DNA of 64,000 nucleotides from positions 62,001-126,000 of the forward strand of contig NW_020846150.1 in NCBI RefSeq assembly GCF_003704095.1, written 5' to 3'. The DNA comes from Pocillopora damicornis (Eukaryota). The notes under the pieces were generated by a model. It was not told the DNA's origin and did no database searches. It worked only from the letters and a program-made list of their open reading frames with translations. Shown here in pieces: positions 52,501-54,965 of this stretch (within the stretch, counting starts at the first letter, position 1; each line of letters opens with the position of its first letter). The position numbers and the translations under genes were made by a program.

Positions 52501-54965
52501 ATTTAAGATTTCTAACTGAAAATTCAGATGCTCAATTCAGATCATTGATTATTGAACTATAGACGAGTAGCTCCTTTATTACCAATTTATTTAACTATTT
52601 TTTTTTTCAGATATTAGGAAAATGAACAATATATCAGTATATGCCAAAAATACAGGGATGATAATTTTAGGAGGCGGTCTAATGAAGCATCACATATGCA
52701 ACGCAAATCTAATGGTGAGTTACTTTCAACATCCTGCTCTAGTGCTGTGACATCTTCAATCCTTGACAGTTTATCGCTTCAATTTATTATTTCATTTAAA
52801 TTTCCTCCTCTCCTCGGCATTTCCTGTGCTTATTCGGCTTCAGTAACGAAGAAGTGGTCACCAAGAGTGACGCTCATTTTGGTCTGAATTTGTTTTATTT
52901 GCTTACTTTTGTTTTAATCAAAGCTATTAAAAGTGGGGCTTGATCCACGTTCTGTAAGTTAGGCATTTCCTTGCGTCATTTTGCAGAGGACAGAAAAGTA
53001 CCTCCAAACACTTTATTTTAATAGCAGATGCCCAGGTTGTATAAATTTCCAAACGGTATTTTGACTATAGGTAACTACCACAGATAAAAAAATATCGAGT
53101 GATCAGCTACCTTTAAAATTTGGCCGTTTCAGTTGGATAGAATAGCATTTCCTTGCCTTAATAAGCTTTGCAGTGCGCCAACCGGTTGGAAAACGATTAA
53201 ACCATTGAATGCTGATATCCACTTTCCCAACTGCCGAGGCCCATTCTATTCTGTTTAGAAATCCTTAGTTAAAAGTCCTCTACTGCCTTCACGAGTTGAG
53301 ATTTTTTCATTCCAAGCATTGTTTCAACAGCAATTCTAAGGTTTGGGAAGGGAGGGGGGTGGGGTGAGAGTCTGCCTTCAAAATAGCAGGTAATTTAGTG
53401 TTAACAACTGAGTTGAAAACGTAAATTGGCCTCCGTAAAGGGTAAAAAAGCTGACGTTTCGAGCGTTAGCCCTTCGTCAGAGCCCTTCGTCAATCGCTCT
53501 GACGAAGGGCTAACGCTCGAAACGTTAGCTTTTTTACCCTTTACGGCGGCCAATTTACTTTTTCAACTCAGTTGTTAACACTAAATTACCTGCTATACCT
53601 TCCCACCGACGCAGTACCTCAGTTTCTTTAGAAACTTACTCCCTTTATGCCTTCAAAATAGCCTCGCATGCATGCAGTGACAAGAAGTAGTGCTACTCCT
53701 TTTGACCGACGTTTTTGTCTATCGCATTCGCCTCCCACCCCACCTTGCCCCCAAAATTTTGTTAGGTTTCCATTTTCGCTGCGGCGCGTGAGTTCCCAGT
53801 ACATACCTACTCAGTTCATACCTCCAATTAAATTAAATTTTGAGAGATTTGTCATAAACTTGTTAAGAAAGTTGTTTAATTCTCAGTTCGGTCTTTGAAT
53901 AACGAAAAGTGTTATTAATTTTTCTCAAGGTTGGGACGAAGGAGAAAATCAGAATTCCTGCGACTATTCGAACCACTGACCTCCAAAAACGCACTGTCGT
54001 GCACTATTAGGTCTCGTTAATTAGCTAAGCTTCTACAAGGGTTAAATATATTACGTATTCAGCCTGCTGTTTGGATCAGCAAGAGATGTTAGGTATCTCC
54101 TTTTGTTTGACAAGATTATGTGACAGTTTGGTTTCCTTATTCAGCGTAATGGCGCCGACTTCTCTGTGTTCGTCAACACAGGCCAGGAGTTTGACGGAAG
54201 TGACTCAGGTGCCAGACCTGATGAAGCTGTGTCCTGGGGAAAAATTAAGATGACAGCTTCGCCTGTAAAGGTGAAAAACAACTTCTTCTCATTATCTTTT
54301 GAAAAAAGAATTGTTGATAAGAGTGAAGGTAGTCAGGGAAACCGCATTAGCGAGTGACATTTGTGTGGAAACTCGGTATAATTTATAGTTGCGTTATAAC
54401 ATTTTCTTTCGCCTTTGGCAGAGTTGGGAAGCGACCAACGGAAACGGAAAATAGACAATTTTGCCACTTTTTTTTTTGTTGTTTTTTTTTTCTTGTCACA
54501 TACTACTTAAACTAAGGCTTGCAATTAAAGCTACGAACAATGAGCACGATTATTTAGAGTTTATGGTGAGCTCTATAGCCCCATATTGTGGATGCTATCG
54601 TCAAACACTATCAGACCAAATGAAAGAAAAATAAATGAACGGAACAACTGCCACCGAATGTTAGGGTGTTTCGTTAGAATAACTAATTGTGAAAACTTAA
54701 AAGCTGTTGCATTTATTAAAGTACTTCAGTTCGGTCTTTAATCCATGTGGAAACAAGACCAGTTGAGAATGGTGGCGATTTGTGGTTGTATTACAGATCA
54801 AATGTAGTTAAATGGAATACAGGTGGAAGAGTGAATGAGCTATTTATTATTCCAGTGTTAATATATATGATAATTATTTCCTTTTAGGTTTATGCAGACG
54901 CTTCCTTGGTTTTTCCGCTCTTAGTGGCGGAGACCTTTGCCCGGAGTTTTAAAATGGACAATTAG
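49524..54965 (+). CDS. DHPS: Deoxyhypusine synthase
   Basis: Exons 49524-49715, 50577-50750, 51316-51534, 52043-52129, 52259-52364, 52611-52714, 54145-54270, 54888-54965. [99 protein letters not shown] (catalytic Lys), [17 protein letters not shown]. Confidence 0.98.
50958..51110 (+). mobile_element. Old, CpG-decayed Penelope-like 3' end fragment in DHPS intron 2
   Basis: gctctcatgaaggggtaacactcaaaatgtcagct..ctgatgcagcactactgtttct..agaaact aligns by eye with 53496-53640, with CpGs changed to TG/CA. Confidence 0.65.
53450..53483 (-). ncRNA. Minimal type I hammerhead ribozyme motif (PLE type)
   Basis: GCT-CTGACGA-A-GGGC-TAAC-GCTC-GAAA-C-GTC^AGC: CUGANGA and GAAA cores, stem II, GUC triplet, GCT/AGC stem I, palindromic ACGT stem III. 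Confidence 0.65.
53496..53529 (+). ncRNA. Minimal type I hammerhead ribozyme motif (PLE type), on the DHPS sense strand
   Basis: GCT-CTGACGA-A-GGGC-TAAC-GCTC-GAAA-C-GTT^AGC (GUU triplet). Confidence 0.55.

What the first reader, a model, noticed from the sequence alone, without database searches (positions are those of the whole stretch)
53373..53662. Self-complementary double-hammerhead mini-retroelement with a perfect 15-bp TSD in a DHPS intron
Seen: a 260-bp non-coding insert made of an inverted copy plus a direct copy of a Penelope 3' end, forming a near-perfect hairpin of about 100 bp, with a hammerhead core on each strand (GUC on -, GUU on +) and an exact TSD. Established: Penelope-like elements carry minimal hammerheads that can act as dimers, and they generate inverted terminal repeats. 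Inference: a recent insertion of a non-autonomous ribozyme-bearing unit. In DHPS pre-mRNA the antisense arm would base-pair with and mask the sense ribozyme, a built-in safety catch, while creating dsRNA. A similar left end at 60991 hints that the palindromic unit itself may be a mobile family.
Basis: partly seen in the sequence, partly recalled or inferred. Interest (0 to 1): 0.7.

Follow-up and report, generated by a model that had tools for sequence, protein, structure and literature searches.

The report
Hairpin stub of Penelope-type retrotransposon
This 260-base mirror-image insert is real, but it is a short stub of a common Penelope-type jumping gene rather than a family of its own, and its sister copies suggest it was likely built at the landing site from two DNA copies started at the two cut strands, a testable clue to how this class makes its inverted ends.

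Summary
Observation confirmed: 15-bp TSD, 101-bp arms (97%), one minimal hammerhead per strand, in a normally spliced DHPS intron. The interpretation mostly fails. The insert is the terminal repeat (pLTR) of a high-copy Neptune/Nematis-type Penelope-like element (674 exact tail matches), and hairpins are its commonest young product (85 of 132). Junctions vary (69 in 81); the commonest recurs on five haplotypes; this copy's junction recurs only in another subfamily. So it is not a palindromic family, and nothing supports a selected safety catch. The copies record a mechanism: 50 of 50 hairpins have exactly one tail; the tail-less arm starts at +88..+97 with microhomology to its own target; TSDs (mode 13) occur in 68 of 72 hairpins but 7 of 47 single arms; either arm may run further (38:37); ends pile up about 30 nt below a TATA box. 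Likely both staggered nicks prime reverse transcription at two sites on a short pLTR transcript and the cDNAs join head-to-head. The architecture is in print; this mechanism was not found in seven searches. The scan reached the same reading earlier on shark and ray DNA.

The parts
53373..53387 (+). Left target-site duplication; last 5 nt (ATAGC) also match the inverted arm (microhomology)
53383..53483 (-). Inverted, tail-less pLTR arm (+98 to -2, numbering hammerhead C3 = +1)
53450..53483 (-). Minimal type I hammerhead core, GUC triplet; antisense in DHPS pre-mRNA
   Evidence: sequence; fold of the arm
53484..53491 (+). Junction: 8-nt re-copied piece of the inverted arm, likely a template slip at AGC, leading into the commonest junction
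53492..53596 (+). Direct pLTR arm (-6 to +98)
53496..53529 (+). Minimal hammerhead core, triplet mutated GUC>GUU at 53526
53597..53647 (+). One-sided tail (about 50 nt) ending CCCTTTA
53648..53662 (+). Right target-site duplication
52715..54143 (+). Host DHPS intron (about 1430 nt, GT..AG; ends +/-1), spliced in 4 of 4 RNA runs
41793..43054 (-). Older 1.26-kb ORF-region copy of the same element, 85% identical, tail-less 3' end at +99
60986..61042 (-). Tail-less arm end of the same family, cut by an assembly gap

Best explanation
The insert is a short head-to-head stub of an endonuclease-bearing Penelope-like retrotransposon, likely made once at this site when both strands of a staggered cut primed reverse transcription. 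Shown: it is the pLTR of a high-copy element with RT and GIY-YIG domains; hairpin copies carry exactly one tail, a 13-16-bp TSD and variable junctions. Inferred: (1) a TATA promoter in ORF-linked copies makes an RNA that starts 5-9 nt above the hammerhead; (2) the protein nicks the target about 13 nt apart; (3) one nick primes at the tail end (+146..+156), the other at +88..+97, helped by 0-5 nt of microhomology, probably on one RNA or RNAs from one source; (4) both cDNAs run off the RNA 5' end and are joined by microhomology, snap-back or untemplated bases; (5) the promoter lies outside the copied part, so the stub is likely a dead end. In DHPS it is likely a neutral passenger.
For: Parent: L026 encodes YIDD RT, a CxxxxCxxC linker and a GIY-YIG region (Pfam GIY-YIG weak, E 0.008); 674 exact tail matches. 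Hairpins are 85 of 132 young copies, 69 junctions in 81. One tail in 50 of 50 hairpins picked without regard to the tail. TSD of 9 nt or more in 68 of 72 hairpins (63 at 13-16) versus 7 of 47 single arms, p 8e-20. Tail-less end +88..+97 in 64 of 64; microhomology mean 1.85 versus 0.62 null, maximum 1.12 in 5000. Inverted arm longer 38, direct arm longer 37, equal 6, with the same outer ends and TSDs in each class; zero-loop palindromes exist. Arms share non-consensus variants 34 times versus 3.8 permuted and agree at three diagnostic sites in 45 of 50. The 3 inverted arms longer than -30 all pair with long direct arms. TATAWA in 24 of 33 upstream rows (some rows are the same locus twice), 22 of them about 30 nt above the -7 peak. 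In vitro the Anolis protein nicks and extends both strands and starts at two sites that bracket the tail (PMC11167929).
Against: No biochemistry, and no raw reads for the RNA start. Inner ends of the two arms are not correlated overall (rho 0.11, p 0.34). Only 5 of 50 inverted arms are strictly nearest to their own partner (13 ties, 32 others). The commonest junction outnumbers its mirror 15:5, which fits some snap-back. Seven or eight of 13 other inverted copies have a TSD but an outer end at +30..+75. PMC11167929 found no strand preference between start sites and no target homology, unlike the strict one-tail rule and modest microhomology here (8 of 22 13-nt TSDs have none). Loop inversion after insertion could also give the 38:37 symmetry. 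No full-length element was found.
Confidence: 0.72

Rival explanations
1. One cDNA primed at the tail runs off the RNA, folds back on itself and copies itself into a hairpin, which is then joined to the second nick by microhomology (self-priming).
For: The commonest junction is what a cDNA ending at -6 gives by pairing at +2 (15 of 50). Arms share variants. Young single-arm copies have C at -7 in 16 of 22 while 7 of 7 young long copies have T, as an abortive 1-2-nt snap-back would give. PMC3846280 reads junction palindromes as self-priming.
Against: Cannot make the 38 of 81 hairpins whose tail-less arm runs further than the tailed arm, nor zero-loop joins or joins where both arms are full length with bases between. 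Gives no reason for the stop at +88..+97, which is also the 3' end of long ORF-region copies. Likely a sealing step within the best model.
Confidence: 0.17
2. The palindrome is itself a non-autonomous mobile family copied from a master hairpin.
For: 114 hairpins with exact outer motifs genome-wide; one junction recurs with different TSDs.
Against: 69 junctions in 81; the recurrent junction spans at least five haplotypes and its carriers are no closer to each other (0.090) than to others (0.073); no arm-specific variant in more than 3 of 49; 60 of 64 arms abut their own TSD with no shared flank; the TATA box is outside the stub.
Confidence: 0.05
3. The hairpin was kept in DHPS because the antisense arm masks the ribozyme or makes regulatory dsRNA.
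For: The pre-mRNA would form a very stable duplex; the insert seems present in 4 of 4 DNA runs.
Against: Hairpins are the default product; the sense core is mutated and prefers another fold alone; a minimal core tested alone did not cleave (PMC4209133); splicing looks normal; the copy has gathered ordinary substitutions.
Confidence: 0.03

Closest known systems
EN+ Penelope-like element insertion unit with inverted pLTR, one-sided tail and TSD (Adineta Pen2a_Av, PMC3846280 passages; PMC8557442 Fig. 2 legend, passages)
   Same: Head-to-head inverted 5'-truncated pLTR, tail on one end, short TSD, palindromic junction, TATA and Inr-like motifs in the pLTR.
   Different: Here the unit is reduced to two pLTR stubs with no ORF; tail about 55 nt rather than 30-40; TSD mode 13; counted over many copies. 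PMC3846280 explains the inversion by self-priming on an antisense template; the counts here favour two target-primed cDNAs.
Poseidon of Anolis carolinensis, in vitro TPRT (PMC11167929, main text read)
   Same: Both strands nicked and extended; two RT start sites bracket the tail; hammerhead cleavage not needed; uncleaved RNA is the main template.
   Different: That paper saw no strand preference and no target homology and did not address inversions; here one tail per hairpin and modest microhomology. Different clade (linker zinc finger present).
Minimal PLE hammerheads (PMC4209133, parts 1-2 of 4)
   Same: Type I core, bulged base before helix II, palindromic minimal helix III; pairs on opposite strands 100-700 bp apart were already noted in Schistosoma.
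   Different: Helix I only 3 bp by inspection; activity untested; the sense core has GUU.
Non-LTR retrozymes (10.64898/2026.07.22.740005, parts 1-2 of 5 and passages)
   Same: Non-coding, hammerhead-bearing, PLE-derived.
   Different: Retrozymes are head-to-tail tandems with same-strand ribozymes; this is head-to-head with one ribozyme per strand.
LINE-1 twin priming (recalled, not read)
   Same: Second target strand primes internally by microhomology and gives a 5' inversion within a TSD.
   Different: L1 inversions cover a different part of the RNA at variable sites; here both arms copy the same stretch from a fixed second site.

Membership tests
EN+ Penelope-like element (Neptune/Nematis type) | RT followed by C-terminal GIY-YIG endonuclease in linked copies | tested here: met
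   L026 frames with YIDD and VIY..YIG upstream of the same pLTR; Pfam GIY-YIG E 0.008, below cut-off; RT piece no Pfam or PDB hit
EN+ Penelope-like element (Neptune/Nematis type) | CCHH motif and CX2-5CxxC linker finger | tested here: met
EN+ Penelope-like element (Neptune/Nematis type) | Clade placement by RT tree (Neptune versus Nematis) | not tested
   No reference set on hand; 'Neptune-like' rests on the linker only
EN+ Penelope-like element (Neptune/Nematis type) | pLTR with minimal hammerhead, inverted copy, one-sided tail, TSD | tested here: met
EN+ Penelope-like element (Neptune/Nematis type) | Partial tandem (pLTR-ORF-pLTR) full-length copy | tested here: inconclusive
   No shared continuation past the tail in 30 of 31 loci read; no direct 5' pLTR-ORF join in 25 RT loci; gapped assembly
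Non-autonomous palindromic family (MITE- or SINE-like) | Fixed internal junction and ends inherited by a clade | tested here: not met
Non-LTR retrozyme | Head-to-tail tandem with same-strand hammerheads | tested here: not met
   Cores are on opposite strands
Non-LTR retrozyme | Self-cleavage and circular RNA | not testable with these tools
   Only contigs were served

The most novel reading that the evidence does not exclude
Penelope-like elements integrate by obligate asymmetric double priming: a protein dimer holds one RNA at two fixed start sites about 55 nt apart, nicks the target 13 nt apart, and copies the same RNA twice. Short pLTR-promoter transcripts then give strong-stop-like hairpins sealed by snap-back. 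This would explain inverted pLTR, one-sided tail and TSD in one step and replace the antisense self-priming model.
Probability: 0.5. Interest if true: 0.6.

Novelty: new member of a known kind. Interest (0 to 1): 0.33.

Why it matters
The locus itself is ordinary. How Penelope-like elements make inverted ends is described as undefined (PMC8557442) and has been read as antisense self-priming (PMC3846280). The copies give sharp predictions (one tail per hairpin, 13-nt stagger, second start at about +92, run-off 30 nt below a TATA box, TSD tied to the inverted arm) that the existing Anolis in vitro assay could test. It also warns that such hairpins will be misannotated as MITEs or small-RNA precursors.

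Tried and rejected
Rfam: no hammerhead hit. The first 30 loci were biased toward the query's own junction and were left out of the counts, except four that also came up in tail searches. In vivo hammerhead cleavage: 4 of 35 off-peak ends at +28/+29, p 0.011, post hoc; a genome-wide pattern found 4 places, of which 3 are truncated near there; weak, not claimed. Cap-templated G: the extra letter is mostly C, so no cap signature was seen. Correlated inner ends: not significant. Nearest-neighbour test of arms: uninformative. Full-length element: not found. Empty allele: none among the joints shown, but 157 joints were not shown and contigs drop rare variants. Empty site for the 60991 end in the nearby duplication: alignment does not reach it. 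Editing, siRNA, circular RNA: not testable on contigs. PDB search of the RT piece: no hit. Look-up of earlier findings by sequence: nothing. [quoted passage not shown]

Full report
Observation. The TSD is exact (53373-53387, 53648-53662) and unique of its kind in the window (1 of 61,094 positions). Arms of 101 nt are 97% complementary; the RNA hairpin has z -28. Each strand has a minimal hammerhead core by inspection; Rfam misses them. Six DHPS exon frames match Pfam DS and the 1430-nt intron is spliced in 4 of 4 RNA runs. Numbering below sets hammerhead C3 = +1 (53499); cleavage would fall after +28.

What it is. The direct arm has 2368 first-look candidates in the 234-Mb genome and a 29-nt tail motif has 674 exact matches. 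Longer copies continue upstream into an ORF with YIDD RT, a CxxxxCxxC linker and GIY-YIG motifs (weak Pfam hit), which by PMC8557442 (passages) is Neptune/Nematis type; no tree was built. A 1.26-kb older copy lies in this window at 41793-43054.

Sample. 223 loci picked by tail motifs only; 7 lacked the script's motif and 16 were duplicates, leaving 200; 188 had no gap at the junction; 132 were at least 93% identical ('young'). A second set is the first 50 of 114 hairpins found by outer motifs without regard to the tail; it overlaps the first set.

Not a family. 85 of 132 young copies have an inverted arm; 81 well-matched hairpins show 69 junctions. One junction recurs (15 of 50, mirror form 5), but on at least five haplotypes, and its carriers are not closer to each other. 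No arm-specific variant occurs in more than 3 of 49 hairpins. This copy's junction, with its 8-nt slip, occurs at two other places only: a duplicated pair with shared flanks from another subfamily.

Mechanistic record. (a) 50 of 50 hairpins have exactly one tail. (b) The tail-less arm meets the TSD at +88..+97 in 64 of 64, directly in 60, with mean microhomology 1.85 against 0.62; it is modest and not obligatory (8 of 22 13-nt TSDs have none). Long ORF-region copies also end at about +90..+100 or +147..+149. (c) TSDs: 68 of 72 hairpins, 63 at 13-16 nt, against 7 of 47 single arms; TSDs under 9 nt were not scored. (d) The inverted arm runs further in 38, the direct arm in 37, equal in 6, with alike outer ends and TSDs; zero-loop joins and joins with inserted bases occur. 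(e) Arms share variants (34 versus 3.8; 45 of 50 concordant). (f) 64 of 132 direct 5' ends fall at -9..-4 (the extension rule allowed two letters at -7 and -6), about 30 nt below a TATAWA seen in 24 of 33 upstream rows. Against: no overall correlation of inner ends, a weak nearest-partner test, a 15:5 bias in the commonest junction, and TSD-bearing copies with shorter inverted arms.

Model. Inferred: a pLTR promoter makes RNA starting just above the hammerhead; staggered nicks each prime RT, one at the tail end and one at about +92; both cDNAs run off the 5' end and join, often helped by snap-back; the stub lacks the promoter. PMC11167929 (main text read) shows both-strand nicking and extension, two start sites bracketing the tail, a predicted dimer and no need for ribozyme cleavage. 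PMC3846280 (passages) describes the same architecture and prefers antisense self-priming, which alone would give one loop orientation.

Ribozyme and host. One RNA carries one core. In DHPS pre-mRNA the sense core has a private GUC>GUU change and alone prefers an alternative stem; a minimal PLE core tested as a monomer did not cleave (PMC4209133, parts 1-2). Masking follows from base pairing but shows no sign of purpose. The insert appears in 4 of 4 DNA runs of 4 studies (contigs, no empty-site joint among those shown).

Known and new. The architecture, and opposite-strand hammerhead pairs, are in print. Seven searches found no double-priming account; closed papers and supplements were not seen. 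My reading was set; eight scan notes on shark and ray DNA agree but are not independent proof. After seeing their 'capped start' wording I checked the extra 5' letter and found mostly C, not the G a cap would give. L1 twin priming and TATA spacing are recalled knowledge. Verdict: real, ordinary locus; useful mechanistic record; interest 0.33.

Noticed in passing
window 41793-43054 (-): 1.26-kb ORF-region copy of the same element, 85% identical, tail-less end at +99.
   Followed up: partly
window 1568-1790 and 31247-31471: A second palindromic repeat of about 210 bp, 88% alike, with terminal inverted repeats around CCATTTTACAG...CTGTAAAATGG and no hammerhead seen; looks MITE-like. One PLE hairpin (L153) has landed in a copy of it.
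   Followed up: no
window 57226-59128 versus 61343-62939: Local duplication, 80-93% identical pieces about 4 kb apart, broken by N gaps.
   Followed up: partly
window 16902-16947 (-) and 50960-51107 (+): Old decayed pieces of the same pLTR; the second lies in another DHPS intron.
   Followed up: no
L085, L079, L105 junctions: Reiterated copies of the sequence around the hammerhead 5' edge between the arms, as if RT re-primed several times at the template end.
   Followed up: no
young single-arm copies, position -7: C in 16 of 22 where 7 of 7 young long copies have T; may be abortive snap-back or an unassembled source.
   Followed up: partly
L074, L083, L102, L155 and others: A few arms begin at or next to the predicted cleavage site (+29), a weak hint that cleaved RNA is sometimes the template.
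   Followed up: partly
window 52128-52256: A 129-nt DHPS intron is retained in the contig of one RNA run (X17) and spliced in three.
   Followed up: no
window 37325-37502: Near-perfect 89-bp tandem duplication.
   Followed up: no
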